Of a DNA stretch of 64,000 bases, positions 39,169 to 57,566 are shown one piece after another. The DNA is taken from contig VXMP01000080.1 of the NCBI GenBank assembly GCA_009841075.1, positions 15,734 through 79,733 on the forward strand. Reading direction: 5' to 3'. The notes beneath the pieces were generated by a model. That model did no database searches, was not told the origin of the DNA, and saw only the letters and a program-made list of their open reading frames with translations. This DNA comes from Acidimicrobiia bacterium (GTDB lineage: Bacteria; Actinomycetota; Acidimicrobiia; Spongiisociales; Spongiisociaceae). A program made the translations under genes and the position numbers. Position 1 is the stretch's first letter. Every line of letters begins with the position of its first letter.

Positions 39169-39702
39169 ATGGACCAGGAGAAACTTTCCGAAGAATCTCC
39201 CACCGAGGTAGACGGCTATCGAGCACCTCAGGTCTGCAAACTGGTCGGCATCACCTATCGCCAGCTCGACTACTGGGACCGTACCGGCCTGCTTAGGCCT
39301 TCCCTGAAAAAAGCCGAGGGGTCAGGAACCCAGCGCCTCTACACCTTCTCAGACGTAGTGCAGCTTCGGGTCATCAAGCGTCTGCTCGACACCGGACTTG
39401 ATCTCCGCAAGGTGCGCATGACGGTAGATTGGTTACGAGAAAACGTTCATATCGACCAGCCTCTGTGGGAGACCAGCCTGCTGAGCGACGGCTCCAACCT
39501 CTGGATCAGCCTGGACGACGAGGACACCCAGGAGTTTCTCATGGACGCCCTAAGTCGGGGTCAGGGGGTTTTCGCTATAACGGTGGGGAAGATCCAGCGC
39601 GATCTGGAAGGGGAGCTGCTGGAATTCGCCAAGAAGGCGGTGCAGGCCCCACTCCCTTTAGCTGAGGAACTGAGCCAGGAACCGTTCGAGGGGTTCCGGT
39701 GA
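39169..39702 (+). CDS. MerR-family transcriptional regulator
   Basis: Contains the MerR HTH YRAPQVCKLVGITYRQLDYWDRTGLLRPS. Confidence 0.85.
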   Translation: MDQEKLSEESPTEVDGYRAPQVCKLVGITYRQLDYWDRTGLLRPSLKKAEGSGTQRLYTFSDVVQLRVIKRLLDTGLDLRKVRMTVDWLRENVHIDQPLWETSLLSDGSNLWISLDDEDTQEFLMDALSRGQGVFAITVGKIQRDLEGELLEFAKKAVQAPLPLAEELSQEPFEGFR

Positions 39703-41156: not shown

Positions 41157-42011
41157 ATGCTGGTGGCCACGGCCGGAGCCCTCTGGAGCACTTTGGGCCT
41201 GGGAGTGCGGATAATGGACTCCTCCACCCCCTGGCAGATACTCTTCTATCGGGCGGTACCGCAGCTCGTTTTCATCACCATCTGGGTGGCTATGCGCCGA
41301 GGCCACAACCTGGTCCGGTCTTTCACCGACATCGGCCTGAACGGGGTTCTGGCCGGAGCCTGCGTCTCTATGTCTTCGATAGCCTTCGTCAACGCCCTCA
41401 CCCTGATCACTGTGGCAGAGGCCATGTTCATATTCAGCATGGCACCAATTCTGGCGGGCCTGCTGGGATGGCTGGTGTTGCGAGAGCCGATCACCCGGAT
41501 CACCTGGGTGGCAATGGGCCTGGTAATGGTCGGGATCGGGATAATGAACGGCCCCGGACACGCCGAGGGCCTTTCGATCGGGACGTTTCTCGCCTTCATA
41601 GGGGCATCCGGTTTCGCCGGGTTTACCGTACTTCAGCGCCGCCGACCTAACATCGACATGTTGCCCGCCGTGGCCGTATCGGGCCTGATCACGATGGCAA
41701 CCATCGGATGGAAGACAGTCGGGGTACCCGTCCCCGACCTGACCGACCTGCTGGTCGCCCTATGGCTGGGTGGGGTAGCCCTGGCGGGAGGCCTGGCCCT
41801 CTACACGATAGGGGCACGCCAGGTACGATCCGCCGAATCGGTCGTAATTTCCATGACTGAAATCATCCTCGGCCCGGTCTGGGTGTGGTGGCTACTAGAC
41901 GAAACCGTAACCTTCGCCATACTGTCAGGCGGAGCCGTAGTAGCAAGCGGGGTAGTTATCCAAGCCCTCCTAAACAAACCCACCCCACCAGACCCCAGCC
42001 CGACACTCTAG
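41157..42011 (+). CDS. EamA/DMT-family transporter
   Basis: About 10 TM segments in two EamA-like halves. The ATG at 41157 follows an AAGGGG Shine-Dalgarno sequence. The track ORF from 40908 overlaps the hydrolase gene. Confidence 0.8.
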   Translation: MLVATAGALWSTLGLGVRIMDSSTPWQILFYRAVPQLVFITIWVAMRRGHNLVRSFTDIGLNGVLAGACVSMSSIAFVNALTLITVAEAMFIFSMAPILAGLLGWLVLREPITRITWVAMGLVMVGIGIMNGPGHAEGLSIGTFLAFIGASGFAGFTVLQRRRPNIDMLPAVAVSGLITMATIGWKTVGVPVPDLTDLLVALWLGGVALAGGLALYTIGARQVRSAESVVISMTEIILGPVWVWWLLDETVTFAILSGGAVVASGVVIQALLNKPTPPDPSPTL

Positions 42012-42183
42012 CTGTACTAACTGGAGTGGTCAGCTACGAACCTACATTCCCGCCCCAGGATGGGGTTCCTTTCAATAGGCAATAGGTGGGAGGCCTATGC
42101 CAGAGGAACTGTAATACTGCATTAATCAATCTGGATTGCCATTACCATTATGCATACCGTAGCTAACATGATATAATAAGTTT

Positions 42184-43977
42184 GTGATCAATAACAATGG
42201 CATCCAAAAAAATACTAGTTATCAATCTTGTGAATTCGCTGCTCTTTATTTAGAGTCCATAGAAATACGTAATTTTCGCGGGATCGAAGAGTGCCGGATG
42301 ACGTTCGAGAGTGACCTGACCGTGTTGGTTGGGCCGAACAACATCGGAAAGTCACGGGTCATGAGAGCATTGTCTCTCGCCCTCGGCACCGCCTCAGCCA
42401 GTCGGGATGACTTCACGGTGGGTAAGAACCTTAACCCTCTGATTGACGTAGTGTTCGCTCCCTCCGAACCTCCAAGCGCCAGTGGCGAGGAGACTTTCGA
42501 CGAACGTCTGCGCGGCCGTCTTAGAGACGCGATTGCCCTGGTCACAAGCGAACCGGATCGCGAACGCTTGGCGTGGCGAACCCGCATCCGGCGATCGCTC
42601 GAAGGCCACGGGGCACGCATCGAGCATCTTCGGCTGACCTATAACGAAGGCAAGGGTCGCTGGAGTGCTCCCCTGGAGCATGCAGCTGCACACGAGGTGA
42701 GATCTGTAATAGCTGCGGATTTGGTGAACACCGGACGAGACCTCGCTGGAGAGATGAGAAGACCAGGGTCGCCCATCAGGCAGGTGCTCTACGACTTGGA
42801 CATCAGAGAAGACGAGCGCGCTCTGATCGAGAACGATCTCTCTTCTCTGAGCTCGATGATCGTAACTGCAAGCGGCTCGCTGGCGGCCGTTCGGGATTCG
42901 CTCGCAACGCTTGATGAATCGGTGGGAGGCGTGGGCGCTCCAAGCCTTCAGCCGCTTCCGATACGCTTGGAGGAGATGTCGAGATCTATGTCGATTGAAC
43001 TCGACGCCGGGGCTGGACCGCTGCCCATGCGAATGCAGGGTGCCGGTGCACGGAGCCTCGCCTCGCTACAGGTTCAGGGCGTTCTATATGATCGGCGTCT
43101 CGGCCGCGACGGTGATGCGCCCGCACCTCACCCGGTGAGCCTTATTGAGGAGCCGGAAGCCCATCTCCATCCACAAGCCCATTTCGAGTTGCCAAGCCTG
43201 CTGACGCGAATCCGTGGCCAGGTGATCGTTACGACACATTCCTCACACCTCGTGTCAGAAGCGAGTCCAAGATCCCTGCGATTGCTGCGAAACGACAGCG
43301 GTCTCGTCCAGGCGATCGACCTTCACGTGACTGGCGAGCAAGCACCAGACCGTTCCCGAAGGCCGAGCCTGCATAAAACGGAAATGGAGAAGATCCGCAG
43401 GACGGTGGAGAGACCCTTCGGTGAGCTGGTCTTTGCGTCCGCCGTAGTCTTGGGTGACGGCGCAACAGAACGCGCTCTTATTCCAGCCTTGGCCCGACAT
43501 TGTTATGGCTCCAGAGCGCAGGGACTCTGTGTAGTTGACCCGGGGAGCATGGGGGCCGGCTTAGCCGCCGCGGTACTTAAATTCGCCAATCTGGTGGGGC
43601 TTCCCTGGCTGCTGTTCGCCGATTCCGATGAGAAGGGGAGACGATCTGCCGAGAAACTCGTCCGTAGATACGGACGAGAAGGGGTGGATCATATTGTTTG
43701 GATCGGCACACCCGACGATGACGGCAGAGAAAAAGCAACCGAACACATGATGCTTAAATCTCATCTCAACCTGTGCCGAGATGTGTGTCTTGATCTGGGC
43801 TACGATGGTTCAGGAGGCGAGCGTTCACTTTTGAAATTCATGAAGAATCATAAGGGAACTATTGGTAGCCTCTTAGCGACAGAATTGATCAAATCGCATC
43901 CGTGGCAGACCGAGGCTGAGCAGTGGCCCGTTCCGCTCAGAGAACTGATGAACCGGCTGGGTACCATATTTCGTTAG
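42184..43977 (+). CDS. gajA: OLD-family ATP-dependent endonuclease, GajA-like (ABC-type ATPase plus TOPRIM)
   Basis: Contains IEIRNFRGI, Walker A GPNNIGKS, Walker B/H-loop LIEEPEAHLHP..TTHS, and the C-terminal TOPRIM signatures VVLGDGATE and LFADSDEKG (DxD). A UvrD-like helicase gene follows it, and an AT-rich promoter-like spacer precedes it. Confidence 0.8.
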   Translation: MINNNGIQKNTSYQSCEFAALYLESIEIRNFRGIEECRMTFESDLTVLVGPNNIGKSRVMRALSLALGTASASRDDFTVGKNLNPLIDVVFAPSEPPSASGEETFDERLRGRLRDAIALVTSEPDRERLAWRTRIRRSLEGHGARIEHLRLTYNEGKGRWSAPLEHAAAHEVRSVIAADLVNTGRDLAGEMRRPGSPIRQVLYDLDIREDERALIENDLSSLSSMIVTASGSLAAVRDSLATLDESVGGVGAPSLQPLPIRLEEMSRSMSIELDAGAGPLPMRMQGAGARSLASLQVQGVLYDRRLGRDGDAPAPHPVSLIEEPEAHLHPQAHFELPSLLTRIRGQVIVTTHSSHLVSEASPRSLRLLRNDSGLVQAIDLHVTGEQAPDRSRRPSLHKTEMEKIRRTVERPFGELVFASAVVLGDGATERALIPALARHCYGSRAQGLCVVDPGSMGAGLAAAVLKFANLVGLPWLLFADSDEKGRRSAEKLVRRYGREGVDHIVWIGTPDDDGREKATEHMMLKSHLNLCRDVCLDLGYDGSGGERSLLKFMKNHKGTIGSLLATELIKSHPWQTEAEQWPVPLRELMNRLGTIFR

Positions 43978-43991
43978 GGAGACCGGAAAAG

Positions 43992-45764
43992 ATGACTAAT
44001 TTCTGCTTGACCACAAAACAGGAGCAAGCGGTTGCCAGTCGAGCACGTGCGCTCACCGTCGTCTCAGGACCTGGAACGGGCAAGACCGAGGTCGTAGCGC
44101 GGCGGATCGAGCGAATTCTCTATCAGTCGCCGCTTGAGGAGTTCAGAGTTTTGGCCCTCTCGTACACGGTACAGGTCGCTGACGGCCTAGAGGATCGGCT
44201 CGCCGGCCGCCTCGGAGACCTCCACCGACTGGTAGACGCCCACACTTTCTACGACTTCGCTCTCCGTGTCGTTCAGCACCACGGGACGCTGGTCGGGCTT
44301 CCGCTGGTGCCGAAGATACTCAGCCGAGACGAAGACCGGTGTGAACTCCTCGCGGCATGGCTCGATCGAGGAGGTTACAGACATCCGGCCGACCCGGTCG
44401 AGACCTTCCGCAGGTTGGACTTGGACCGAGCCCATGGCAAAGAGACCCGCCACATAGAAATTTGGCGGCGCGTCCTGGCCGAAGCCGGGGCGCTGGACTA
44501 TCAGGCGATGCTCGAACGGGCCACCGAAGTGCTCTCGCTCAGGGGTGCCAGCCGGATCTACCGAGGTATATACAGGCACGTCGTGGTAGATGAGGCCCAG
44601 AATCTGACCAGGTCGCAGTACAGACTGCTCACTTCGCTCATCGGCCCTCCGGTGGGCACTCACCTCCCTGCCACGCTCGTGGGCGACGAGCGGCAGTCAA
44701 TTGTCGACTTCGCCGGGGCAGACGACACCCTCATAAGCGCGTTCGAGCATCGGTATAGCGCGGAGCGAATCGAGTTGGACACCAACTTCCGATCCACTCA
44801 ACGTATCAACCAAATCACTCGGAGGGTCGCTTCCGGGTTAAGCATTCCATCGGACACCTCCCGAGCCCATTACGAAGCCTGCGGCGAACTGCAGATCGCC
44901 GAGTTCGACTCTGAGGCCGACGAGGGAATCGGTGTCGCGTCTTGGATTGAGAGGCAACTCGACTGCGGACTACCGAAGGAGGCTGTCTTACCTGATGAAC
45001 CCACTTCGGTTGCTCCCGAACAGATAGCAGTCCTCGGTCGCTCGGCCACAGCACTGATTCCTACCCGGGATGCCCTTGATAAGTTGGGAATAGTGCACGT
45101 TTCTGCCAGCACTGCCGATGCCTGGGTAACCAGCCTCCCTGCGCAAACAGTTTTGGGTTTCATAAGATTCAAGAATGCCCCCGACCATCTCTCCACCCGC
45201 CGGCACCTGGCACGTCTATGTGGCAAGAATCCCTATGAGGAGTGGGACGATGTGTCGGAGTTGTTCCGCCAAAGCCCGGATCCCTGCTTGGCAGAACTTG
45301 CCCGGATTGGAACGGTTTCTACTCCTCAAGAACTCGTTTCAGAACTGCATCAACTGGATATCAGGGATCCCGATTGGTTGGACGACATTCAACAGATCAG
45401 TGATTCCTTAACCTCATTTGTTGATCAAGTTCCAGTTGGCTTGCGGTCCTTTCCACAGTTTAAAAACCACATTGACCGATGCCAACGAGGTAACCCACTT
45501 GATCCCGGTGTGCGCTTGCTAACCGTACACAAGTCCCAGGGACACGAATTTAAGAGCGTAGCCGTGGTTGCTTGCAACGAAGGCCAGTTTCCGGATTTTC
45601 GAGCCAACACCCCCGAGGACAGAGAAGCAGAACGGCGCACCTTCTATGTTGCGGTCTCCAAGCCATCTCGATCCTTGCTTGTCACCCGCGCCCGCAAGCG
45701 CAGAACAAGAAACGGTACCTGCCACACCAATCCATCACCCTTCCTGGACTGGGTACGCGCCTAG
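43992..45764 (+). CDS. gajB: UvrD/Rep superfamily-1 helicase, GajB-like
   Basis: Contains Walker A SGPGTGKT, motif II VVVDEAQNL, and TVHKSQGHEFKSVAV. The ATG at 43992 lies 14 nt after the gajA stop and follows a GGGAGA Shine-Dalgarno sequence. Confidence 0.8.
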   Translation: MTNFCLTTKQEQAVASRARALTVVSGPGTGKTEVVARRIERILYQSPLEEFRVLALSYTVQVADGLEDRLAGRLGDLHRLVDAHTFYDFALRVVQHHGTLVGLPLVPKILSRDEDRCELLAAWLDRGGYRHPADPVETFRRLDLDRAHGKETRHIEIWRRVLAEAGALDYQAMLERATEVLSLRGASRIYRGIYRHVVVDEAQNLTRSQYRLLTSLIGPPVGTHLPATLVGDERQSIVDFAGADDTLISAFEHRYSAERIELDTNFRSTQRINQITRRVASGLSIPSDTSRAHYEACGELQIAEFDSEADEGIGVASWIERQLDCGLPKEAVLPDEPTSVAPEQIAVLGRSATALIPTRDALDKLGIVHVSASTADAWVTSLPAQTVLGFIRFKNAPDHLSTRRHLARLCGKNPYEEWDDVSELFRQSPDPCLAELARIGTVSTPQELVSELHQLDIRDPDWLDDIQQISDSLTSFVDQVPVGLRSFPQFKNHIDRCQRGNPLDPGVRLLTVHKSQGHEFKSVAVVACNEGQFPDFRANTPEDREAERRTFYVAVSKPSRSLLVTRARKRRTRNGTCHTNPSPFLDWVRA

Positions 45765-45988
45765 CCCCCACAGCCATCCCGATCATTGAATTGGTCGGAA
45801 CGCATTTCGTCGAGGTCTCCATACCAACCTACGCCTTCCATCTCTAATTGGTCTTCTACGCTCATCTGGCCGCTCGCCAGGAGGCGCTCCAACGCAAAGT
45901 GAACCGTCTCCTGGTTGGTCGGTAATCCGAAATCACTCATGACGCGGGCGATCAGATCGTCCTCTATGTCAATGTTGATTCGAGACAT
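45761..45988 (-). CDS. vapB: VapB-type (ribbon-helix-helix-like) type II antitoxin, orphan
   Basis: MSRINIDIEDDLIARVMSDFGLPTNQETVHFALERLL..GDLDEMRSD matches the VapB/DUF2191 antitoxin pattern. No PIN-toxin ORF follows. Its 3' end overlaps the gajB stop by 4 nt, in convergent orientation. Confidence 0.75.
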   Translation of the reverse strand: MSRINIDIEDDLIARVMSDFGLPTNQETVHFALERLLASGQMSVEDQLEMEGVGWYGDLDEMRSDQFNDRDGCGG

Positions 45989-45991
45989 TCC

Positions 45992-46003
45992 GCATAATTA
46001 TGC
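45992..46003. promoter_or_regulatory. perfect 12-bp palindrome GCATAATTATGC next to the vapB start
   Basis: It lies 4 nt upstream of the vapB start codon, in the vapB/hsdR divergent spacer. It is a candidate antitoxin autoregulatory operator. Confidence 0.4.
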
Positions 46004-46123
46004 ACGATGGTTCGCCATTCCGCAGACGTTCTGGTAAACGCCTGGTGCGCCGGTGTCACTGGTCGGGTGTACCCTCAAACATTATGAGCGCGAATATCTC
46101 TATCCCGGATGGTGTAGTAATAG

Positions 46124-48937
46124 GTGATGGATTACATCAAACCTGAAGACCAGGCACGTATTCTGATTGACGGGAGCCTGACCGCTTGTGGCTGGGAAAT
46201 ACAGGACTATCGGTCCGCTGCGGTGGCAGCTGCCCCGGGCGTGGCGGTTCGTGAAGCCCGAACCGAAGCCGGACCTGCGGACTATGTGCTGTTCGTGGAC
46301 GGACAGGCGGTGGGGGTCATCGAGGCCAAGAGGGAGGGCACTACACTCACCGGAGCCGAAACACAGACCAGCAAGTACCAGACCGCTTATCCGGAGAACT
46401 TACCTGCCTTCCGGGTAGATGGTGACCTGCCATTCGGATACGAGTCCACCGGAACGGAAACCCGCTTCACTTCCCTGCTCGACCCGGTACCCACCTCGCG
46501 GGGGGTGTTCGCTTTCCACCGGCCCGAGACGCTGGCCCGGTGGGTTAACGACTATGCGGACGGAAGCGGGGTATCCGGAATCCGTGGCGGGTTGCACCTG
46601 CTGCCCGAACTGGAGGAAACCGGTCTATGGCCCGCCCAGGCCCGAGCTATTCGTAATCTGGAGAAGTCTCTGCAGGACAATCGCCCTCGGGCGCTGATTC
46701 AGATGGCCACCGGCTCCGGCAAGACCTTCACCGCGGTGAACGTCTCCTATCGACTGCTCCGCCACGCGGGTGCCCAGAGGGTGCTTTTCCTGGTGGATCG
46801 GGCCAACCTGGGCCGCCAGACCATCACCGAGTTCGAGAAATTCGACACCCCAGACGACGGACGCAAGTTCACCGAGTTGTACAACGCCCGGATGCTGGAC
46901 TCGTCCGACTTCCATATCGACCGCGAAGCAGCCACCAAGGTGCACGTGTCCACCATCCAGCGTATCTACTCCGTCCTCCGCGGCGAGCCGATCGACCAGG
47001 ATCTGGACGAGCAGACCGGATTCGAGATCGCACCGGAGCGTCCGGTCGAGGTCACCTACAACGAGAAGCTGCCCATTGAGGCCTATGACCTGATCATTGT
47101 CGACGAGTGCCACCGTTCCATCTACGGGGTATGGCGGCAGGTTCTGGAGTACTTTGACGCCTTCCTCATCGGCCTGACCGCTACGCCCGGCAAACAGACC
47201 TTCGGCTTCTTCCACCAGAACCTGGTGATGGAATACAACCACGAGCAGGCGGTGGCCGACCGGGTGAACGTGGACTTCGACGTGTTTCGCATCCGCACCG
47301 AAGTCGGCGAGGAGGGCGGTACGGTGCCCGCCGGCTTCGTAACCGAGTTCCGCGACCGCGAAACCCGCCAAACGCGCTTAGACCAGATCGACCAGGACAT
47401 TGACTGGGACGCCTCTGACCTGGACAAAAAGGTGGTAGCCCCCGATCAGATACGAACGGTGGTCCGCACCCTGCGGGACTCAATGCCCGAGATGTTCCCC
47501 GATCGCGTACTGAGAGAGGACGGCAGGCTCGAACATATCCCCAAGACCCTGATCTTCGCCAAAACCGACAGCCACGCCGACGACATCGTTCAGATTGTCC
47601 GGGAGGAGTTCGGCCTCGACAACCTCGGCGCGGTGAAGATCACCTACACGGCCAGGCTATCCGGCCACAAACCGGATGATCTACTGCAGAGGTTCCGTAC
47701 CAGCTATGAGACTCGCATCGCGGTCACGGTGGACATGATCGCCACCGGCACCGACGTCAAGCCCATCGAATGCGTGGTGTTCATGCGCATGGTTCGCAGC
47801 CGTAATTTCTTTGAGCAGATGAAAGGTAGGGGAGTGCGGGTGATGCCTACCGGAGACCTGCTGATCGTCACCCCCGACGCCCAAGCCAAGGAGAGGTTCG
47901 TCTTGGTAGATGCCGTGGGCGTGACCGACACCAACCTCCACGACACCGTTCCGCTCGAACGCAAACCCGGCATGGGGTTCGACCGACTTCTCAACCTGAT
48001 CGGCCTGGGCGACACCAGCGAAGACGTGATCTCATCGGCAGCCTCCCGCCTGGCCCGGCTCGACAAGCGCATCACCCAAGCCGACCGGGAGGAAGTAGAG
48101 GAGATCGCGGGCATGGGTCTCGGGGAAATCGCAAGCCGCATGGTCGACGCGCTCAACCCCGACCATCATTACGAAGCGGCAAAGGAGGAGGCCGGAAGTG
48201 AGGAGCCGAACGAAGGGCAAATCGCTTCGGCCCGAACAGAGATGATCAAAGCAGCCCTGGAATCTCTGACCAGCAACTCTATGCTCCGGCAGAAGCTGAT
48301 CGAGGTACGCCGCAGCTACGAACAGATCATCGACACCGCTACCAGGGATCGGGTGATCTCAAGCGAGTATTCCCGGGAGGCCACCGACCACTCCCGTAAT
48401 CTGGTGGACTCTTTTGAACAATTTATAGAGGAGAACCGTGACGAGATTAATGCATTGGAAATCCTCTACCGCCGGCCTTACAAGGCCCGACTGACCTACG
48501 CCGACATCAAGCAGCTGGCCAACGCCATCAAAAGACCACCCCGGGCCTGGACCCCCGATGTGCTGTGGAGGGCCTACGAAGTGCTGGACGAATCCAAGGT
48601 GCGAGGGTCGGGGCCGAGGATCAACACCGATCTGGTCAGTCTGGTCCGCTACGCGCTAGGCGAATCGGAGGAGCTGGTCGCCTACAAAGAGCTGGTGGAG
48701 GAGCGGTTCGAGGCCTGGCTGACAGGGCAAGCCAACCTAGGCCGCAGCTTTGATGATGGCCAACTCGCCTACCTACATCTCATCAAGGATCACCTGGTAG
48801 CCAACCTTTCTGTTGAGCCAAAAGACCTGATGGAAGCCCCCTTCAGCACCCACGGCGGCCTGGGCCGAGCAAGCCGACTCTTTGGAGAGGAACTGAACCC
48901 TCTGCTTACTGAACTCACCGAGGAATTAGCAGCATGA
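46124..48937 (+). CDS. hsdR: type I restriction enzyme, R subunit
   Basis: Has an N-terminal PD-(D/E)xK motif (DYVLFVDGQAVGVIEAKRE), the SF2 motor motifs QMATGSGKT and IIVDECHRS, and a long helical C-terminal domain. Confidence 0.95.
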   Translation: MMDYIKPEDQARILIDGSLTACGWEIQDYRSAAVAAAPGVAVREARTEAGPADYVLFVDGQAVGVIEAKREGTTLTGAETQTSKYQTAYPENLPAFRVDGDLPFGYESTGTETRFTSLLDPVPTSRGVFAFHRPETLARWVNDYADGSGVSGIRGGLHLLPELEETGLWPAQARAIRNLEKSLQDNRPRALIQMATGSGKTFTAVNVSYRLLRHAGAQRVLFLVDRANLGRQTITEFEKFDTPDDGRKFTELYNARMLDSSDFHIDREAATKVHVSTIQRIYSVLRGEPIDQDLDEQTGFEIAPERPVEVTYNEKLPIEAYDLIIVDECHRSIYGVWRQVLEYFDAFLIGLTATPGKQTFGFFHQNLVMEYNHEQAVADRVNVDFDVFRIRTEVGEEGGTVPAGFVTEFRDRETRQTRLDQIDQDIDWDASDLDKKVVAPDQIRTVVRTLRDSMPEMFPDRVLREDGRLEHIPKTLIFAKTDSHADDIVQIVREEFGLDNLGAVKITYTARLSGHKPDDLLQRFRTSYETRIAVTVDMIATGTDVKPIECVVFMRMVRSRNFFEQMKGRGVRVMPTGDLLIVTPDAQAKERFVLVDAVGVTDTNLHDTVPLERKPGMGFDRLLNLIGLGDTSEDVISSAASRLARLDKRITQADREEVEEIAGMGLGEIASRMVDALNPDHHYEAAKEEAGSEEPNEGQIASARTEMIKAALESLTSNSMLRQKLIEVRRSYEQIIDTATRDRVISSEYSREATDHSRNLVDSFEQFIEENRDEINALEILYRRPYKARLTYADIKQLANAIKRPPRAWTPDVLWRAYEVLDESKVRGSGPRINTDLVSLVRYALGESEELVAYKELVEERFEAWLTGQANLGRSFDDGQLAYLHLIKDHLVANLSVEPKDLMEAPFSTHGGLGRASRLFGEELNPLLTELTEELAA

Positions 48938-50232
48938 ACGATTTACCACCCGGATGGGCGTGGGCAGAAGTGATCGACATAGCAAAGCTGATACGAGGAG
49001 TTACCTTCAAAAAGCAAGATGCCGTCCAAAAAGGCGAGCCTGGTTATGTGCCGATCGCTCGTGCAGGCAACCTTGAGCCTGGCAGGACGAAATTCGACGA
49101 TAACCTCATATTCGTATCCCGAAATCTTGTTAAAAAGGACCAGTTTCTTCGCGCTGGCGATGTTCTTATTGCGACCTCAAGCGGCAGCTTATCTGTCGTG
49201 GGGAAGTCCGCCATTGTGTCCAAGAACTGGGAAGGTGGGCACGGAGCGTTTATGGCTGTAATACGAGCCCTACCTGATATTAATATAGCCTATCTCGGCT
49301 ACTACCTTCAATCTCGCGTGGTACGGAAGAAATGGCAGGAGTTAGCAGCGGGCACAAATATCAACAATCTCAAAAAGAATGACCTACTTTCTACGGTTGT
49401 TCCAATAGCACCATTAGCGGAGCAGGAACGGATTGTTGAGCGGATTGAGGAGATATTTTCTCGTCTGGATGCCATCGAAACGTCTCTGAAATCCCTAAGC
49501 GACCGGCTGGGGCTGCTGCGCTCCGCCATCCTCGCCGACGCCTTCCACACCAACCGCGACCTACCGCCCGGCTGGAAACGAAGCGCACTTGAGAAGATAG
49601 TCACTCCTAGAAAGGGGAAGGTAATATCAGATTACGACGATCTTCGGCCCTATCTGAGCTTAAATAACATACAAAGCAATACTTGTAATATCCTAAATTG
49701 GGAACACTCCTCTGACTATAGGTCACAATCTTCAAGGCTGTTTCCAGGAGATGTGGCATATGCTCGTCTTCGTCCTTACTTGAACAAAGTCGTAAATATT
49801 GATCGCGAAAGTTTAGGTTCTGCCGAACTCATCGTATTGCCAAGGTCTGAGTCTCTATTACCTAGGTTTCTGACCTTACTGTTAAGCAATCAATCCTTTG
49901 TCGAATACGCAACCGCTAACAGTACTGGAGATCGGCCTCGTCTCAAGTGGCAGACGATGAAGCAATACAAATTTGATCTTCCTCCTATTGAGCACCAAAG
50001 TCATATTGTCGAACTTATAGAATCTAACTTCTCGCTCATTCATGTCATTGAAGAATCCATAAATCATGGATTAGACCGAATAGCAGACCTCCGTCAATCA
50101 GTTTTAGCAGAGGCGTTTTCGGGGCGGTTGGTTCCTCAGGATCCCGATGATGAGCCTGCCTCCGTTCTGCTAGAACGCATCGCCGCCTCCCGTCCGGCTA
50201 AGCCCAAGTCCCGAAGGAAGGCCCGATCATGA
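48934..50232 (+). CDS. hsdS: type I restriction enzyme, S (specificity) subunit
   Basis: Has two TRDs, each starting LPPGW, separated by the conserved helical regions (LAEQERIVERIEEIF.. and IEHQSHIVELIES..LRQSVLAEAFSGRLV). It has an ATGA overlap with hsdR. Confidence 0.95.
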   Translation: MNDLPPGWAWAEVIDIAKLIRGVTFKKQDAVQKGEPGYVPIARAGNLEPGRTKFDDNLIFVSRNLVKKDQFLRAGDVLIATSSGSLSVVGKSAIVSKNWEGGHGAFMAVIRALPDINIAYLGYYLQSRVVRKKWQELAAGTNINNLKKNDLLSTVVPIAPLAEQERIVERIEEIFSRLDAIETSLKSLSDRLGLLRSAILADAFHTNRDLPPGWKRSALEKIVTPRKGKVISDYDDLRPYLSLNNIQSNTCNILNWEHSSDYRSQSSRLFPGDVAYARLRPYLNKVVNIDRESLGSAELIVLPRSESLLPRFLTLLLSNQSFVEYATANSTGDRPRLKWQTMKQYKFDLPPIEHQSHIVELIESNFSLIHVIEESINHGLDRIADLRQSVLAEAFSGRLVPQDPDDEPASVLLERIAASRPAKPKSRRKARS

Positions 50233-51683
50233 CCACTGATCAGAAAGTGCTGGTGGATCGGCTGTGGAGCTTTTGCGATGTGCTCCGCGACGACGGCCTC
50301 TCCTATGGCGACTACGTGGAGCAGCTCACCTATCTGCTGTTCCTGAAGATGGCCGACGAACAAACCTCGCTACTTGGGAGTGATCCGATCATACCGCCGG
50401 ATCTCGACTGGAAGTCGCTTCTAACCAGATCCGGCCCCGACCTCGAAACCCATTACACCCACATTCTGGGCACCCTGGCCCGAGAGAAGGGCGTTCTGGG
50501 GGTGATCTTCTTCAAAGCCAAAAACAAGGTCCAGAGCCCGGCCAAGCTGGAGCGGCTTATCAAAGAGTTCGTGGACAAGCACGAGTGGCTGAGCCTGGAA
50601 GCCGACCTCAAAGGAGACGCCTATGAGGGCCTGATCGAAAAAACCGCCCAGGAAGGTGCCAAAGGAGCGGGCCAATACTTTACCCCTCGGGCGCTGATCT
50701 CGGCCATCGTGGACGTGATGCTCCCCGGCCCTGCGGAGTCTGTCTGCGATCCGGCCTGCGGAACCGGCGGCTTCTTTCTAGGTGCCTACCAGTCGATCCT
50801 GGAACGCTACCCAAACCTCGATCCCGACCAGCGCGCCCATCTTCGCTCCGGTGCCTTTACCGGCTGGGAGATAGCCGACCTCCCCGCCCGCCTCTGTGCC
50901 ATGAACCTGCTGCTGCACGGCATTGAAAGCCCCGACTCCGACTCGCCTATTCATGTGGATGACGCACTTCGAGAAGACCCGGGCAAGCGCTTCGAACTGG
51001 TGCTCACCAACCCCCCATTCGGTAAGGCCTCCGGAGCCACCTACGAGCGGGAGGACTTCTGGACCCAAACCAAAAACAAGCAGCTCAACTTTGTCCAGCA
51101 CGTGGTCACCCTTCTGGAAGTCGGAGGCCGAGCGGCGGTGGTGGTTCCCGACAACGTGCTGTTCGAGGGCGGAGCCGGCGAAACCATCCGTCGCCGCCTG
51201 CTCCACGAGTGCGACGTGCATACTTTGCTCCGCCTCCCCACCGGCATCTTCTATGCCCAGGGCGTCAAGGCCAACGTCATCTTCTTCGAGCGCCGGCCAG
51301 GTGCCCCCCAAGCCCACACCCGCGAGCTGTGGGTCTATGACCTGCGCACCAACCAGCGCTTCACCCTCAAGCAGAACCCCCTCACCCGAGCCCACCTCGA
51401 CGACTTTGTGGCCTGCTACCAGCCCGACAACCGCCACCAACGCATCGAGACCGACCATTTCAAGCGCTTCACCTACGACGAGTTGATCGCCCGCGACAAG
51501 GTGAGCCTCGACCTCACCTGGCTACGCGACGACAGCCTGCAAGACACCGAGAACCTTCCCCCGCCCCACGAAATCGCCACCGAGATGCTCGAAGACCTTC
51601 AATCCGCCCTCTCTGAACTCAACGCCCTAACTGAGCTGCTCGAACCGACCGAAACACCTCCGCTAGGCTCTGCTAACGACTAA
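50229..51683 (+). CDS. hsdM: type I restriction enzyme, M subunit (N6-adenine DNA methyltransferase)
   Basis: Has an HsdM N-terminal domain, the SAM motif DPACGTGGF and the catalytic motif NPPFG. It has an ATGA overlap with hsdS. Confidence 0.95.
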   Translation: MTTDQKVLVDRLWSFCDVLRDDGLSYGDYVEQLTYLLFLKMADEQTSLLGSDPIIPPDLDWKSLLTRSGPDLETHYTHILGTLAREKGVLGVIFFKAKNKVQSPAKLERLIKEFVDKHEWLSLEADLKGDAYEGLIEKTAQEGAKGAGQYFTPRALISAIVDVMLPGPAESVCDPACGTGGFFLGAYQSILERYPNLDPDQRAHLRSGAFTGWEIADLPARLCAMNLLLHGIESPDSDSPIHVDDALREDPGKRFELVLTNPPFGKASGATYEREDFWTQTKNKQLNFVQHVVTLLEVGGRAAVVVPDNVLFEGGAGETIRRRLLHECDVHTLLRLPTGIFYAQGVKANVIFFERRPGAPQAHTRELWVYDLRTNQRFTLKQNPLTRAHLDDFVACYQPDNRHQRIETDHFKRFTYDELIARDKVSLDLTWLRDDSLQDTENLPPPHEIATEMLEDLQSALSELNALTELLEPTETPPLGSAND

Positions 51684-51732
51684 GCGCTCTAAAATGTCCC
51701 ACCCTCGTTGTACGTTTATAGACAACCGAAAT

Positions 51733-51754
51733 CAAAGGCAGAACAAAGGCAGAA
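51733..51754 (+). promoter_or_regulatory. tandem 11-bp direct repeat CAAAGGCAGAA x2 ending 3 nt upstream of the DUF5131 start
   Basis: Read directly from the sequence. It lies in the 74-bp AT-richer spacer between hsdM and the DUF5131 gene. Confidence 0.4.
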
Positions 51755-51757
51755 GCT

Positions 51758-52567
51758 GTGAGCAACCAAACCGGCATCGAGTGGACCGAGACCACCTGGA
51801 ATCCAACCACCGGGCGCGATCTCATATCTCCAGGTTGCGACAACTGCTATGCCCTCACCATGGCAAAGCGCCTCCATGACATGGGTCAACCCAAGTACCA
51901 GAAGAACGGCGACCCTCGCACCAGCGGCCCCGGTTTCGGCTTGACCCTCCATCCCGACACCCTGGAAGCCCCGTACCGATGGAAGGCCCCGAAACTCATC
52001 TTCGTGAACTCGATGAGCGATCTGTTCCACCCGAAGGTCCCGCTCGACTTCATCCGTCAGGTCTTCCAGGTGATGGCTGACACCCCCCGCCACACCTACC
52101 AGGTACTCACCAAGCGCTCCAGTCGTCTCGCCACCCTCGCTCCCGAACTCGACTGGCCCGAAAACGTCTGGATGGGCGTCAGCGTGGAAAACGACCGTTA
52201 CGCCTTCCGCGTCAACCACCTCCGCACCGTCCCCGCCGCCATCCGCTTCGTCAGCGCCGAACCTCTGCTCTGTCCGTTACCCGACCTGGACCTATCGGGT
52301 ATCCACTGGGTAATAGTCGGAGGCGAAAGCGGTCCCCGCTCCCGCCCGATGCAAGAATCCTGGGCAATAGACCTAAGAGACAAATGCGCCGCTGCAGACG
52401 TAGCCTTCTTCTTCAAACAATGGGGCGGCCCCACCCCCAAGTCGAGGGGTCGCTGCCTTCAAGGAATCCGGTACAGCAACATCCCCAGGCAGCGTTCTAT
52501 AGGCCGATTTACAGGAACCGACTTTCGGCACCAGAAGCGCAAAGAGGCAGTTCTGGGAGAGCCTTGA
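51758..52567 (+). CDS. DUF5131 / phage Gp37-Gp68 family protein (three-Cys-motif family), function unknown
   Basis: Contains IEWTETTWNPTTGRDLISPGCDNCYA, IFVNSMSDLFH, VIVGGESGP and FFFKQWGG, all hallmark blocks of the family. The first motif Cys is Arg here. GTG start. Confidence 0.85.
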   Translation: MSNQTGIEWTETTWNPTTGRDLISPGCDNCYALTMAKRLHDMGQPKYQKNGDPRTSGPGFGLTLHPDTLEAPYRWKAPKLIFVNSMSDLFHPKVPLDFIRQVFQVMADTPRHTYQVLTKRSSRLATLAPELDWPENVWMGVSVENDRYAFRVNHLRTVPAAIRFVSAEPLLCPLPDLDLSGIHWVIVGGESGPRSRPMQESWAIDLRDKCAAADVAFFFKQWGGPTPKSRGRCLQGIRYSNIPRQRSIGRFTGTDFRHQKRKEAVLGEP

Positions 52568-53619
52568 GTCTGGGCGAAGCCATCACAACTGCCCGGTGCG
52601 CCCGTGGGCTGACGCAGAAGGTGCTCTCCGCTCGGCTGGGTATTACACAGGCGGCCCTGTCCAGACACGAGAACGACCTGCGGGAGCCCTCAGAGGAGAG
52701 GTTGAAGGAGATAGCCTCCGCTCTAGGAGTGACATCAGGGCTGCTTCTAAGGGCCGGAAGGATGCGTGGAGCTATAGCCGTCGGTGCACACATGCGCAGG
52801 CGGGCCACCGCTCGCCCAACCGTGTGGCGTCGCCTTGAGGCTCAGCTAAACCTTCATCGGCTGCATGCCAGGCGCATACTGGAACATGTTGACCTTTATG
52901 CCGACCTCACCATCCCCTGGTTCGATCCCTTCGCTTTCGATCCGGTGACAGCCGCCCGCCTGCTTCGGGCAGAGTGGGGCCTGCCTGTGGGTCCGGTACG
53001 TGATCTCACCGGATGGATCGAGAAGACGGGCTGTTTGATTTTTGAGAGCGACTTCGGCACCGGCCGCGTCGACGGTCTTTCGCAATGGGTCGACCCCTAT
53101 CCGGTAATCATGCTCAACTCCACGGCACCGACCGACCGGCGGCGGCTCACGCTTGCCCATGAACTGGGACATCTATGCCTACACAGCCAAGGAGTTCCGG
53201 ATGACTATGAAAGCGATGCCACTTCTTTCGCGGCGGAGTTCTTGATGCCAGCGGAAGTGATCCGTCCTCAACTTCGCAACGTCACCACCGGCCGACTCCA
53301 TGACCTCAAGCGTTACTGGGGTGTGTCCATGCAGTCTCTGATCGAGCGCGGGTTCCACCTCGGGGTGATCCCGGCCAAACAACGGACCTATCTATACAAG
53401 AGGTTTAGCGCGCTCGGCTGGCGCACCCACGAGCCGGTCAGCGATGAATTGCCACCGGAGCGTGCCCGACTGGTCTCGGACATCGGGCAGGCCATGCTGG
53501 AGCGCGGCCTAACCGCATCCGAGATCTCGGCGATCACCGGCTATGCCCCGGAGTCATCAGATAACCCGTTCCTCAACTCAGGCCCACGCCTCCGGATAGT
53601 CCGAGCCCGACCAGAATAG
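52564..53619 (+). CDS. fused XRE-family HTH / ImmA-IrrE (M78) zinc-metallopeptidase protein
   Basis: Has an N-terminal HTH (ARGLTQKVLSARLGITQAALSRHENDLREPS) and the peptidase motif LAHELGHLCLH with the downstream ..AAEFLMP. The TTG start overlaps the DUF5131 stop (TTGA). The track ORF from 52384 is read-through. Confidence 0.85.
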   Translation: MSLGEAITTARCARGLTQKVLSARLGITQAALSRHENDLREPSEERLKEIASALGVTSGLLLRAGRMRGAIAVGAHMRRRATARPTVWRRLEAQLNLHRLHARRILEHVDLYADLTIPWFDPFAFDPVTAARLLRAEWGLPVGPVRDLTGWIEKTGCLIFESDFGTGRVDGLSQWVDPYPVIMLNSTAPTDRRRLTLAHELGHLCLHSQGVPDDYESDATSFAAEFLMPAEVIRPQLRNVTTGRLHDLKRYWGVSMQSLIERGFHLGVIPAKQRTYLYKRFSALGWRTHEPVSDELPPERARLVSDIGQAMLERGLTASEISAITGYAPESSDNPFLNSGPRLRIVRARPE

Positions 53620-53663
53620 TTGGTACGGCAGGGCCCTCACCAGGCCTGAACGCCGGTAGCAGG

Positions 53664-54524
53664 CTATTGCTCGGGGACGATGTCGGCGGTGTCGGGTTCG
53701 GGGGGTTCGGATAGTTCTTCTGCGGCGGCGGTTACCTGATCGGACAAGAGGGCGAACTCGAAGGCGGCCGACTCGAAGTCCTGCAGTCCGGCTTGGCGGG
53801 TTTCGCCGGTGTCGGTGGACTGGAGCCCTTCCTGCATGGTTCGGGCCGAGGCGATCATCTCGTCTAGCGAATCCACCAAGTCTTGATGGAAGTGGTCGCT
53901 TAGGCTTGCGGGGGGATCGGTGGTATTCAGCTGCACGGGCAGCAGACCAATCTGGAATACCAGATCGTTCATATCCTGGAGGGTTTGTTCGTAATCAGTC
54001 CGGCCTCGGTCCCAGTCGTCATTGATTTGTCGCCCTCGGGTGCGGGCATCCGCTACCTCCAGGGCTATATCAGAGATCCGATCTGCGTAAAAGGTCAGAG
54101 CCTGAACCGTCTCGGTCGGGGTGGTAGCGACTGTCGAAGACGGCACCACCTCCACCGTTTGGTCACGGCTGATGAGGGTGCGAACCCCGAGTACCAGGGC
54201 GACGATCACCAGGATCACCGGCAGAACTCGGCTGATCGAGAGGGCGTTGAAAACGGATACTTCCCGTCTTCCGGACGATGGGGTTGGATCGGAGGGAGTG
54301 TCCGAATAGGTCGGGGCGGTAAAAGAACCGGAGGACCGTACCTCGTGCAGGCAGGCCGGACACCTGGTGGCACCGGTAACCCAGGATTGGCCGCAGCCAG
54401 GACAGAAGCGGGGGGTCTCGGAACCGGATCGGGGGGTGATCATCTCCTCGGTTACCGGTATCGGGTCGGCCGGGCGTAGCCTCGACCAGCGAGAACCCTC
54501 CCTCTCGCCGCCATCCGGTGGCAT
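53664..54524 (-). CDS. zinc-ribbon, single-pass membrane protein of unknown function
   Basis: Has a CPGCG..CPAC zinc ribbon, one TM segment (VLPVILVIVALVLGV) and a helical acidic C-terminal domain. The ATG at 54524 avoids the overlap with mshD that the track start at 54671 creates. Confidence 0.6.
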   Translation of the reverse strand: MPPDGGEREGSRWSRLRPADPIPVTEEMITPRSGSETPRFCPGCGQSWVTGATRCPACLHEVRSSGSFTAPTYSDTPSDPTPSSGRREVSVFNALSISRVLPVILVIVALVLGVRTLISRDQTVEVVPSSTVATTPTETVQALTFYADRISDIALEVADARTRGRQINDDWDRGRTDYEQTLQDMNDLVFQIGLLPVQLNTTDPPASLSDHFHQDLVDSLDEMIASARTMQEGLQSTDTGETRQAGLQDFESAAFEFALLSDQVTAAAEELSEPPEPDTADIVPEQ

Positions 54525-57532: not shown

Positions 57533-57566
57533 ATCAGTGAACCTGAGGTTCGTGGTAAAGCCTCTA

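What the first reader, a model, noticed from the sequence alone, without database searches (positions are those of the whole stretch)
42012..53663. ~11.6 kb multi-system defence island without mobility genes, embedded in core actinobacterial synteny
Between the EamA transporter gene and the zinc-ribbon/mshD/thrS block, nine genes form three units. These are gajA-gajB; a minus-strand orphan vapB; and hsdR-hsdS-hsdM followed by the DUF5131 and XRE-M78 genes. Each unit is internally tight, with 4-nt overlaps (a 14-nt gap in gajAB). The units are separated by short, visibly AT-richer spacers at 42100-42183, 45989-46123 and 51684-51757. The flanking genes are housekeeping. I see no integrase, transposase, flanking tRNA or direct repeats, so the insertion mechanism is not evident. 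Stacking of known immune systems is the classic context in which uncharacterised neighbours turn out to be new defence genes.
Basis: partly seen in the sequence, partly recalled or inferred. Interest (0 to 1): 0.7.

Follow-up and report, generated by a model that had tools for sequence, protein, structure and literature searches.

The report
Strain-variable, partly decayed defence island
This 11.6-kb stretch is a real anti-phage defence island (an intact Gabija system and an intact type I restriction system, plus three broken remnants), carried by only a minority of strains of one uncultured sponge-associated actinobacterium; it is an ordinary example of its kind with an unusually readable history.

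Summary
Nine genes lie between EamA and the zinc-ribbon/mshD/thrS block, with the stated overlaps and no integrase, transposase, tRNA or flanking repeat. HMMs confirm GajA/GajB, HsdR/S/M, VapB, DUF5131 and an HTH+M78 (RmrA-like) protein.

The island is accessory. In two sister species EamA and the zinc-ribbon gene converge and overlap. Within the same species (flanks 99.4-99.9% identical), 12 contigs carry a two-gene short form instead: an unknown 206-aa gene ("X206") plus the same XRE-M78.

Three refinements:
- XRE-M78 is resident in all strains. Its native partner, conserved across Actinobacteria, is X206. The window lost X206 through a 655-bp deletion between two GGGA repeats, so the DUF5131/XRE-M78 4-nt overlap is a deletion scar.
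- DUF5131 normally pairs with TcmP (PADLOC candidates PDC-M30/M41). Here TcmP is absent, the first Cys of the three-Cys motif is Arg, and the stop codon is borrowed from X206.
- Related hsdRSM-DUF5131 modules carry a complete vapBC. Here only vapB remains.

Gabija and hsdS are compositionally foreign; hsdR, hsdM and DUF5131 are host-like. Turnover looks like flanking homologous recombination plus illegitimate deletion. This is a new member of a known kind, of modest interest.

The parts
41157..42011 (+). Left flank: EamA-family transporter, a core gene.
   Evidence: Pfam EamA 4.9e-20. Orthologs at 65-69% identity in L001 and L002, where the gene converges on and overlaps the zinc-ribbon gene.
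42012..42183 (.). Left junction and gajA upstream region. Homology with the short-form strains ends at 42036/42037.
   Evidence: blastn breakpoints. GC is 0.442 overall and 0.345 for 42100-42183. A perfect TATAAT lies at 42172-42177, 6 nt before the GTG start.
42184..43977 (+). gajA: OLD-family ABC ATPase with a TOPRIM nuclease domain (Gabija).
   Evidence: PADLOC GajA 4e-73; Pfam AAA_15, AAA_21 and OLD-like_TOPRIM. CAI z = -2.9.
43992..45764 (+). gajB: UvrD-like SF1 helicase (Gabija).
   Evidence: PADLOC GajB 6e-74; Pfam UvrD-helicase and UvrD_C. Closest PDB sequence matches are UvrD and PcrA.
45761..45988 (-). Orphan vapB antitoxin gene. Its stop overlaps the gajB stop.
   Evidence: Pfam VapB_antitoxin 2e-9. 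No vapC-like sequence anywhere in the window. Homologs at 47-51% identity sit in complete vapBC pairs inside related type I RM operons, L083 and L046.
45989..46123 (.). Divergent intergenic spacer between vapB and hsdR, containing an imperfect palindrome at 45981-46014.
   Evidence: Sequence, inverted repeat I5, GC 0.519.
46124..48937 (+). hsdR: type I restriction subunit with an EcoEI_R_C C-terminal domain.
   Evidence: Pfam ResIII, Helicase_C, HSDR_N and EcoEI_R_C; PADLOC REase_I 1.6e-45. 80-82% amino-acid identity to L033 and L034.
48934..50232 (+). hsdS: specificity subunit with two target-recognition domains; compositionally foreign.
   Evidence: PADLOC Specificity_I 2e-68. GC 0.486, z = -5.7. 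Only 30-35% identity to L033 and L034, whereas hsdR and hsdM are 80-86% identical.
50229..51683 (+). hsdM: type I N6-adenine DNA methyltransferase.
   Evidence: PADLOC MTase_I 2e-184; Pfam N6_Mtase and HsdM_N.
51758..52567 (+). DUF5131 (Gp37/Gp68 family, radical-SAM superfamily). It has no TcmP partner, carries C20R (codon 51815-51817), and its last 13 nt are shared with the end of X206.
   Evidence: Pfam DUF5131 2.6e-95; PADLOC PDC-M41B and PDC-M30B. No TcmP in the window. Position 20 is Cys in 19 of 19 homologs. Junction sequences.
52441..52558 (+). 3' end of DUF5131 that also survives as a 118-bp remnant in the short-form strains. GGGA at 52555-52558 marks the X206-deletion scar.
   Evidence: blastn 94% identity over 118 bp. 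Removing 655 bp from L023 reproduces window 52468-52754 with 3 mismatches in 287.
52564..53619 (+). XRE HTH + M78 (ImmA/IrrE) peptidase, RmrA-like. Present in all strains of the species; it is the orphaned partner of X206.
   Evidence: PADLOC RmrA 2e-49; Pfam HTH_3 and Peptidase_M78. Present in both the short and long forms. X206 homologs lie directly upstream of its homologs in L038, L040 and L041.
53664..54524 (-). Right flank: zinc-ribbon/unknown gene, then mshD and thrS (core genes).
   Evidence: Orthologs in L001 and L002. Gene calls of 286 aa.

Best explanation
The region is an accessory, strain-variable defence island in an uncultured Acidimicrobiia lineage whose closest relatives include Candidatus Spongiisociaceae sponge-symbiont MAGs. 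It sits between a convergent pair of core genes (EamA and the zinc-ribbon gene) and is a stack of modules with different histories:
- **(a) Gabija (gajAB).** Intact and compositionally foreign.
- **(b) A travelling type I RM module.** In relatives it reads hsdR-hsdS-(vapBC)-hsdM-DUF5131-TcmP. Here hsdRSM is intact, but vapC and TcmP are gone and DUF5131 carries C20R.
- **(c) A resident two-gene module, X206 + XRE-M78.** It has RosmerTA-like architecture. This strain has deleted X206.

Shown:
- The gene content and family assignments.
- Absence from sister species.
- The within-species long/short polymorphism.
- The breakpoints and the microhomology.

Inferred:
- Gabija and the RM system are the working immune components. 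Gabija would act as an ATP-regulated nuclease-helicase complex and the RM system as methylation-based self/non-self restriction.
- The three relics contribute little, except that XRE-M78 may still act as a repressor.
- Content changes through homologous recombination in the conserved flanks after DNA uptake, plus illegitimate or microhomology-mediated deletions. No dedicated mobility enzyme is needed.
For: - **Family assignments:**
- **Absence from sister species.** Synteny is perfect from g36016 to g62520 in L001 and L002, where EamA and the zinc-ribbon gene overlap by 56-62 bp and no island is present.
- **Same-species short form.** Found in 12 distinct contigs; the long form is found in only 3-4 assemblies.
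- **Deletion scar.** Removing 655 bp flanked by GGGA from L023 reproduces the window sequence.
- **Native partner of XRE-M78.** X206 homologs (45-55% identity, E 1e-51 to 1e-69) lie directly upstream of XRE-M78 homologs in three unrelated actinobacterial contexts, including Prauserella marina. Matching longest-contig sizes for at least 10 X206/XRE-M78 homolog pairs point the same way.
- **TcmP pairing.** TcmP is adjacent to DUF5131 in about 50 of 80 metagenome loci but absent from the window.
- **C20R:**
- **vapBC in related modules:** complete vapBC pairs inside related RM-DUF5131 modules.
- **Mosaic composition:**
- **Recombination patch.** 13 mostly synonymous SNPs are confined to 52854-53250, in flanks that are otherwise about 0.1% diverged.
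Against: - No function was tested; the activity of Gabija and the RM system is inferred from intact domains and motifs only.
- The order of arrival of Gabija and the RM module is unknown, because no intermediate alleles were found.
- Ancient junctions relative to the sister species cannot be placed to the nucleotide, because flanks are only about 65% identical.
- All genomes are MAGs or metagenome contigs. Three or four independent assemblies do agree at 100% identity.
- The DUF5131 ORF is still open, and its count of unique substitutions (3) is not outside the range seen in homologs (0-4). Inactivation therefore rests mainly on C20R and the missing partner.
Confidence: 0.8

Rival explanations
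1. DUF5131 and XRE-M78 form a native, functional two-gene system: a RosmerTA-type pair in which a radical-SAM-like protein plays the toxin or effector. The 4-nt overlap would then reflect translational coupling.
For: - The two genes share a TTGA overlap.
- XRE-M78 matches RmrA HMMs at 2e-49.
- RmrA-type antitoxins pair with many unrelated toxins and are toxin-first in 58% of cases (PMC10440598).
- Three metagenome loci read TcmP-DUF5131-XRE-M78, and L035/L036 place an XRE-M78 beside an RM-DUF5131-TcmP block.
Against: - The overlap and the DUF5131 stop codon are identical to the X206/XRE-M78 joint of the short-form strains, and are explained by a 655-bp GGGA-flanked deletion.
- The conserved partner of this XRE-M78 subfamily is X206.
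- The XRE-M78 proteins next to DUF5131 elsewhere are only about 30% identical, lie about 150 bp away, and still have TcmP present.
- C20R removes a motif cysteine.
Confidence: 0.08
2. The block is the remnant of an integrative mobile element (ICE, prophage or integrative island) whose integrase and att sites have been lost or lie outside the region examined.
For: - Gabija and hsdS are compositionally foreign.
- The left spacer is sharply AT-rich.
- Defence islands often ride on mobile elements (general knowledge).
Against: - There is no integrase, transposase or relaxase among the nine genes.
- No tRNA is adjacent and no flanking direct repeats are present.
- There is no similarity to phage or plasmid records beyond two short hsdR patches.
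- The insertion site is a convergent gene pair, not a tRNA.
- The flanks show a patchy SNP pattern typical of homologous recombination.
Confidence: 0.07
3. The region is ancestral to the lineage and simply lost in the compared relatives, that is, a core region rather than an accessory island.
For: - The short form retains a DUF5131 remnant, so loss has certainly happened within the species.
- hsdR, hsdM and DUF5131 have host-like composition.
Against: - Two sister species, and four further family-level relatives, have no trace of it, with perfect flanking synteny.
- In L001 and L002 the two flanking genes overlap, which leaves no space for a lost island.
- Gabija and hsdS are compositionally atypical.
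- Related RM-DUF5131 modules occur in other genomic contexts.
Confidence: 0.03
4. The long form is a mis-assembly or chimeric bin that joins DNA from different organisms.
For: The source is a MAG, and two assemblies break inside hsdS.
Against: - The junctions EamA|gajA and XRE-M78|zinc-ribbon are spanned at 100% identity by an independent ENA scaffold from sample SAMN12347671 (20.8 kb).
- A second sample (SAMN12347672) spans the left junction and a Logan assembly spans the right junction.
Confidence: 0.02

Closest known systems
Gabija (GajA/GajB) anti-phage system; class 2 OLD-family nuclease with a UvrD-like helicase
   Same: Two adjacent genes. The first carries an ABC ATPase and an OLD-like TOPRIM domain; the second is an SF1 UvrD-type helicase. 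Both give strong PADLOC GajA/GajB HMM matches, and Walker A/B, DxD and DEAQ motifs are visible in the sequence.
   Different: The proteins are too distant from the solved Bacillus GajA/GajB sequences to be found by phmmer against the PDB. The host is an actinobacterial sponge-associated lineage. Activity is untested.
Type I restriction-modification system (HsdR with the EcoEI-type C-terminal domain)
   Same: Complete R, S (two target-recognition domains) and M subunits with translationally coupled overlaps. Catalytic motifs are present (NPPF, DPACGTGGF, DECH, MATGSGKT).
   Different: The gene order is R-S-M. A DUF5131 gene follows hsdM, as in a small clade of related modules (L033, L034, L042, L046, L050, L083). 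The hsdS recognition domains are highly diverged from those relatives.
PADLOC candidate systems PDC-M30 and PDC-M41 (DUF5131/Gp37-Gp68 + TcmP, NCBIfam TIGR04474)
   Same: The DUF5131 protein matches PDC-M41B and PDC-M30B at 1e-106 and 1e-101.
   Different: The obligatory partner TcmP is absent from the whole window. The first motif cysteine is Arg. The native C-terminus and stop codon have been replaced. The candidate systems themselves have no demonstrated function.
RosmerTA (RmrT toxin + RmrA HTH/Zn-peptidase antitoxin; Millman 2022, 10.1101/2022.05.11.491447; Ernits 2023, PMC10440598)
   Same: XRE-M78 matches 14 RmrA HMMs (best 2e-49) and keeps HELGH. In sister strains and other Actinobacteria it is preceded, with a 4-nt overlap, by a small unknown protein, which is the toxin-first architecture.
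   Different: The upstream partner X206 matches no RmrT HMM, Pfam family or NCBIfam family. In the window itself the partner is deleted, so no toxin gene is present.
VapBC type II toxin-antitoxin
   Same: A 75-aa protein with the VapB_antitoxin domain. Homologs pair with a PIN-domain VapC in L083 and L046.
   Different: There is no VapC in the window. The space downstream of vapB is occupied by the 3' end of gajB.
Chromosomal hotspots and defence islands maintained by flanking homologous recombination (integrase-free)
   Same: Variable defence cargo lies between conserved core genes. Alternative alleles coexist in one species, SNP patches occur at the edges, and there are no mobility genes.
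   Different: Only two alleles were seen at this spot, and the common one is a deletion derivative rather than a different cargo.

Membership tests
Gabija | GajA: OLD-family ABC ATPase with a C-terminal TOPRIM nuclease domain | tested here: met
   PADLOC GajA 4e-73 (residues 22-498). Pfam AAA_15 8.6e-26, AAA_21, and OLD-like_TOPRIM 2.3e-6 at residues 417-482.
Gabija | GajB: UvrD-like helicase encoded immediately downstream of GajA | tested here: met
   PADLOC GajB 6e-74; Pfam UvrD-helicase 1.4e-29 and UvrD_C; 14-nt gap between the genes.
Gabija | Protection against phage infection | not testable with these tools
   Needs expression and phage challenge.
Type I restriction-modification | HsdR, HsdS and HsdM all present and full length | tested here: met
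   REase_I 1.6e-45, Specificity_I 2e-68 (two Methylase_S stretches), MTase_I 2e-184. Lengths are 937, 432 and 484 aa.
Type I restriction-modification | Sequence-specific m6A methylation of host DNA | not testable with these tools
   Needs methylome data from the long-form strain.
VapBC type II TA | VapB antitoxin | tested here: met
   Pfam VapB_antitoxin 2.1e-9.
VapBC type II TA | Adjacent PIN-domain VapC toxin | tested here: not met
   tblastn with the VapC of L083 finds nothing better than E = 0.39 anywhere in the window. The downstream space is gajB.
PDC-M30 / PDC-M41 (DUF5131 + TcmP) | DUF5131 (Gp37/Gp68) protein | tested here: met
   PDC-M41B 2.6e-106; Pfam DUF5131 2.6e-95.
PDC-M30 / PDC-M41 (DUF5131 + TcmP) | Adjacent TcmP partner (TIGR04474) | tested here: not met
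   No TcmP-like sequence in the 64-kb window. TcmP is adjacent to DUF5131 in about 50 of 80 other loci.
PDC-M30 / PDC-M41 (DUF5131 + TcmP) | Intact three-Cys motif (C-x6-C-x2-C) in DUF5131 | tested here: not met
   C20R (codon CGC); Cys in 19 of 19 close homologs.
RosmerTA | RmrA: HTH + M78 Zn-peptidase antitoxin | tested here: met
   14 RmrA HMMs, best 2.3e-49. Pfam HTH_3 and Peptidase_M78. HELGH is present in the sequence.
RosmerTA | Adjacent RmrT toxin gene | tested here: not met
   In the window the upstream partner is deleted. In sister strains the partner X206 matches no RmrT HMM at E <= 1.
Integrative mobile element (ICE, prophage or integrase-borne genomic island) | Integrase/recombinase, att direct repeats, tRNA or other specific target site | tested here: not met
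Defence island at a recombination hotspot | Two or more defence systems clustered between conserved core genes, with presence/absence variation among close relatives | tested here: met

The most novel reading that the evidence does not exclude
Two uncharacterised modules touch this island and may be real immune or addiction systems.
1. **The radical-SAM-like DUF5131/TcmP pair.** It repeatedly travels inside or directly after type I and type III RM operons, for example hsdM-DUF5131-TcmP and Res-TcmP-DUF5131-Mod. This suggests an RM-linked DNA modification, repair or back-up function.
2. **X206 + XRE-M78.** This pair is conserved from Acidimicrobiia to Streptomyces, Micromonospora, Gordonia and Prauserella. 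It may be a new RosmerTA-like family whose toxin has a PD-(D/E)xK-like nuclease fold.

The window would then be a natural toxin-deletion allele, which indicates which partner is dispensable.
Probability: 0.3. Interest if true: 0.55.

Novelty: new member of a known kind. Interest (0 to 1): 0.35.

Why it matters
This is a clean natural example of how defence islands turn over without mobility genes in an uncultured, sponge-associated actinobacterium.
- The same species carries a full island in a few strains and a deletion derivative in most.
- The breakpoints are resolved to the nucleotide, including a 4-bp microhomology scar that makes two unrelated genes look like an operon.
- It is a caution against reading tight gene overlaps as evidence of a functional unit.

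It also points to two conserved but unstudied modules worth testing elsewhere: DUF5131/TcmP linked to RM systems, and X206/XRE-M78. The immune systems actually intact here (Gabija and type I RM) are already well known, and enrichment of such systems in sponge symbionts has been reported (PMC5649159 and PMC8163846).

Tried and rejected
- **Flanking direct or inverted repeats as att sites.** Only short chance-level matches were found.
- **Promoter and terminator scan.** Counts were at shuffle expectation.
- **Rfam, on the island and on the whole window.** Only the two tRNAs were found.
- **Megablast of the island against plasmids and phages.** Two short hsdR patches on plasmids and nothing in phages.
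- **vapC remnant search.** Noise only.
- **TcmP search in the window.** Noise only.
- **Is DUF5131 generally RM-linked?** Rejected as a general rule. Only 2 of 47 upstream neighbours in the metagenome sample were HsdM. The link is confined to the closest DUF5131 clade and a few type III cases.
- **Is ORF179 (between DUF5131 and XRE-M78 in L033) an X206 homolog?** No.
- **PDB sequence search for GajA and GajB.** Only distant OLD/PtuA and UvrD/PcrA matches.
- **Foldseek of the X206 model.** No match at E <= 1e-3. The nuclease trend among weak hits is a lead only.
- **Relaxed constraint on DUF5131 from unique substitutions.** Inconclusive: 3 in the window copy against 0-4 in homologs.
- **Intermediate alleles (RM without Gabija, or the reverse).** None found.
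- **Sample accessions in the literature.** Not found.

Full report
**1. Observation**

- gajA 42184-43977 and gajB 43992-45764, with a 14-nt gap.
- vapB 45761-45988 on the minus strand.
- hsdR 46124-48937, hsdS 48934-50232 and hsdM 50229-51683, with two ATGA overlaps.
- DUF5131 51758-52567 and XRE-M78 52564-53619, with a TTGA overlap.

Pfam and PADLOC HMMs confirm every family:

| Gene | Best matches |
|---|---|
| gajA | GajA 4e-73 |
| gajB | GajB 6e-74 |
| hsdR | REase_I 1.6e-45, with an EcoEI_R_C domain |
| hsdS | Specificity_I 2e-68 |
| hsdM | MTase_I 2e-184 |
| vapB | VapB_antitoxin 2e-9 |
| DUF5131 | Pfam DUF5131 2.6e-95; PDC-M41B/PDC-M30B 1e-106 |
| XRE-M78 | RmrA 2e-49 |

The gajA start at GTG 42184 is preferable to the gene-caller's 42298, because the HMM matches begin at residue 22. 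A perfect TATAAT lies 6 nt upstream of that GTG.

No mobility signature was found:
- The only tRNAs are far away, at 4794 and 34763.
- No junction-spanning repeats are present.
- There is no Rfam family.
- No phage or plasmid relative exists at the DNA level.

Of the three "AT-richer" spacers, only 42100-42183 (GC 0.345) lies outside the range of ordinary intergenic DNA in this window (0.47-0.61). The other two (0.519 and 0.459) are unremarkable.

**2. Host and accessory status**

A ThrS-anchored scan of one genome per species places the window in uncultured Acidimicrobiia. The closest relatives include Candidatus Spongiisociaceae MAGs.

In the two closest species (L001 and L002, ThrS 81-83% identical) every flanking gene from 36016 to 63404 is syntenic. 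The whole block is missing from both. There, the EamA gene and the zinc-ribbon gene converge and overlap by 56-62 bp. Four further relatives also lack it.

**3. Within-species polymorphism**

Exact-protein look-ups for MshD and EamA recover many contigs of the same species, with flanks 99.4-99.9% identical.
- Twelve distinct contigs carry a short form: EamA, an unknown 206-aa gene (X206; 181 aa in some strains), XRE-M78, then the zinc-ribbon gene. They include a 2.43-Mb contig.
- The long form, identical to the window, appears only in ENA scaffolds from two samples and in Logan assemblies.

The breakpoints are as follows:
- Homology ends at window 42036, which is 25 bp after the EamA stop.
- The short form then contains a 118-bp remnant of the 3' end of DUF5131 (window 52441-52558).
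- Next comes about 650 bp unique to the short form (X206).
- Homology resumes at 52555, which is 9 bp before the XRE-M78 start.

XRE-M78 is therefore present in all strains. The strain-variable segment is about 10.4 kb. The common short form is itself a deletion derivative of a longer ancestor that carried DUF5131.

**4. The DUF5131/XRE-M78 overlap is a scar**

In the short form the sequence reads ...GCAGTTCTGGGA|CGCTCCGGTTAA...[X206]...GCAGCGGGA|GAGCCTTGAGTCTGGG. The window reads ...GCAGTTCTGGGAGAGCCTTGAGTCTGGG. Removing the 655 bp between the two GGGA repeats of L023 reproduces window 52468-52754 with 3 mismatches in 287.

The DUF5131 ORF in the window therefore ends with X206's last three codons and X206's TTGA overlap. 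The direction of the change (deletion here, not insertion there) is supported by outgroups. In three unrelated contexts the homolog of this XRE-M78 (58-73% identity) is immediately preceded by a 205-227-aa protein. These contexts are L038/L039, L040 and Prauserella marina L041. Each upstream protein is homologous to X206, at 45-55% identity and E 1e-51 to 1e-69. At least ten further X206/XRE-M78 homolog pairs share identical longest-contig sizes.

The native module is thus X206 + XRE-M78. This is the toxin-first architecture described for RosmerTA, where an ImmA/M78 antitoxin pairs with many unrelated toxins.

What is known about X206:
- It matches no Pfam, NCBIfam or PADLOC model.
- An AlphaFold model built on 52 homologs is confident (pLDDT 83).
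- Foldseek finds only weak matches (E 7e-3 to 0.1, TM 0.27-0.35), mostly PD-(D/E)xK nucleases such as the SPARDA nuclease, EcoRV, HincII and Hjc. This is a lead, not a result.

Loss of X206 with retention of XRE-M78 is what one expects if X206 is the toxic partner (inference).

**5. DUF5131 is a partner-less relic of a travelling RM module**

DUF5131 belongs to the radical-SAM superfamily and is extremely conserved, with thousands of homologs at 70-86% identity.

Its regular partner is TcmP (NCBIfam TIGR04474, which corresponds to PADLOC PDC-M30A/M41A). This was confirmed in L034 and L035. TcmP is also adjacent in about 50 of 80 metagenome loci. The window contains no TcmP.

The closest DUF5131 clade sits directly after a type I hsdM that is 73-86% identical to the window's:
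- L034: hsdR-hsdS-hsdM-DUF5131-TcmP.
- L046: hsdS...vapB-vapC-hsdM-DUF5131-TcmP.
- L083: hsdR-hsdS...vapB-vapC-hsdM-DUF5131.
- L033, L042 and L050 also show the link.

Type III versions exist too (L035-37; L102 reads Res-TcmP-DUF5131-Mod). Across all DUF5131 loci, however, the RM link is a minority pattern: only 2 of 47 upstream neighbours were HsdM.

The window's copy carries C20R, which replaces the first cysteine of the C-x6-C-x2-C motif. That position is Cys in 19 of 19 close homologs. With TcmP gone, a motif cysteine lost and the native C-terminus replaced, this copy is most likely inactive (inference). Its count of unique substitutions (3) is not exceptional.

**6. vapB**

vapB is a true orphan. 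Its stop overlaps the gajB stop, and no vapC-like sequence exists in the window. Its homologs (47-51% identity) form complete vapBC pairs inside the related RM modules L083 and L046. vapB probably arrived with the RM module, and vapC was lost where Gabija now abuts it (inference).

**7. Composition and mechanism of turnover**

Thirty-five host genes give GC 0.609, GC3 0.709 and CAI 0.673. Against that background:

| Gene(s) | Deviation from host |
|---|---|
| gajA | CAI z = -2.9 |
| gajB | CAI z = -2.4 |
| hsdS | GC 0.486, z = -5.7 |
| hsdR, hsdM, DUF5131 | z about 0 (host-like) |

The host-like composition of hsdR, hsdM and DUF5131 is compatible with exchange among related lineages. hsdS shows the usual swapping of recognition domains: it is 30-35% identical to relatives whose hsdR and hsdM are 80-86% identical.

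Compared with the nearest short-form strain, the flanks differ at about 0.1%. Thirteen mostly synonymous SNPs cluster at 52854-53250 inside XRE-M78. The first 37 bp of the DUF5131 remnant carries 7 mismatches, and the next 81 bp are identical. These patches indicate homologous recombination between diverged alleles.

Two deletions complete the picture. One is the 655-bp microhomology deletion. The other is the 10.4-kb deletion, which has no obvious junction homology. Recombination and deletion together are enough to explain gain, exchange and loss without a dedicated mobility enzyme (inference).

**8. Verdict**

The finding is real, and the island interpretation is supported. Two of its five modules are intact, well-known immune systems (Gabija and type I RM). 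Three are relics: vapB, DUF5131 and XRE-M78 without X206.

It is a new member of a known kind. Enrichment of RM, TA and other defence genes in sponge symbionts has been reported (PMC5649159 and PMC8163846).

The points of interest are secondary:
- A nucleotide-resolved, population-level picture of an island being eroded.
- A deletion scar that mimics an operon joint.
- Pointers to two unstudied conserved modules, DUF5131/TcmP near RM systems and X206/XRE-M78.

Noticed in passing
window 28480-28900 and 57530-57960: Two copies of a roughly 400-bp intergenic element, 85% identical. They have GC-rich hairpin-like cores and an internal GAACGCGAAAAAA repeat near both ends. There is no Rfam match. 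The 57868-57958 part is indel-variable between strains. It may be a MITE-like repeat or an unannotated small RNA.
   Followed up: partly
window about 49429-49528 (middle of hsdS); loci L133/L134 and L028: Two independent assemblies of the long form break inside hsdS: one contig ends at residue 165 and another starts about 100 bp later. This hints at several hsdS alleles within a sample.
   Followed up: no
window 33127-33206 (between cmk and der); L123 951-1560, L125, L126: Some conspecific strains carry two small overlapping minus-strand genes (103 and 101 aa, no Pfam) between cytidylate kinase and the Der GTPase. The cassette is absent from the window. This is a second small strain-variable, TA-like cassette.
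   Followed up: no
L005 2443-6543 and L003 5508-6537 (orthologous to window 38968-39169): Relatives have 1-4 kb of extra DNA between the orthologs of the BFN-domain gene and the MerR gene. This is another variable spot close to the island.
   Followed up: no
window 42172-42186: A perfect TATAAT lies 6 nt upstream of the gajA GTG start, and -10-like hexamers lie just upstream of the hsdR and vapB starts. This suggests leaderless transcripts, which are common in Actinobacteria. The consensus promoter scan did not flag them.
   Followed up: no
L102 816-8291; L035/L036 1-7688; L095: DUF5131 and TcmP are embedded in type III RM operons (Res-TcmP-DUF5131-Mod; XRE-M78-Res-Mod-DUF5131-TcmP). This is a recurrent but minority association of this candidate system with RM genes.
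   Followed up: partly
L023 7335-7955 (X206) and homologs P0241-P0333: X206 is a conserved family of about 205 aa, known only as 'hypothetical protein', found in Acidimicrobiia, Streptomyces, Micromonospora, Gordonia and Prauserella. It lies directly upstream of an XRE-M78 gene in the four contexts read (this species' short form, L038/L039, L040, L041). Invariant residues include R50, W55, D58, R83, R97, K99 and H101. The model is confident, with weak PD-(D/E)xK-like fold matches.
   Followed up: partly
L038/L039 3764-5824: In one outgroup the X206/XRE-M78 pair sits beside a 686-aa reverse-transcriptase gene (RVT_1) and a 1278-aa DEAD/DUF559 helicase, a defence-island-like neighbourhood.
   Followed up: no
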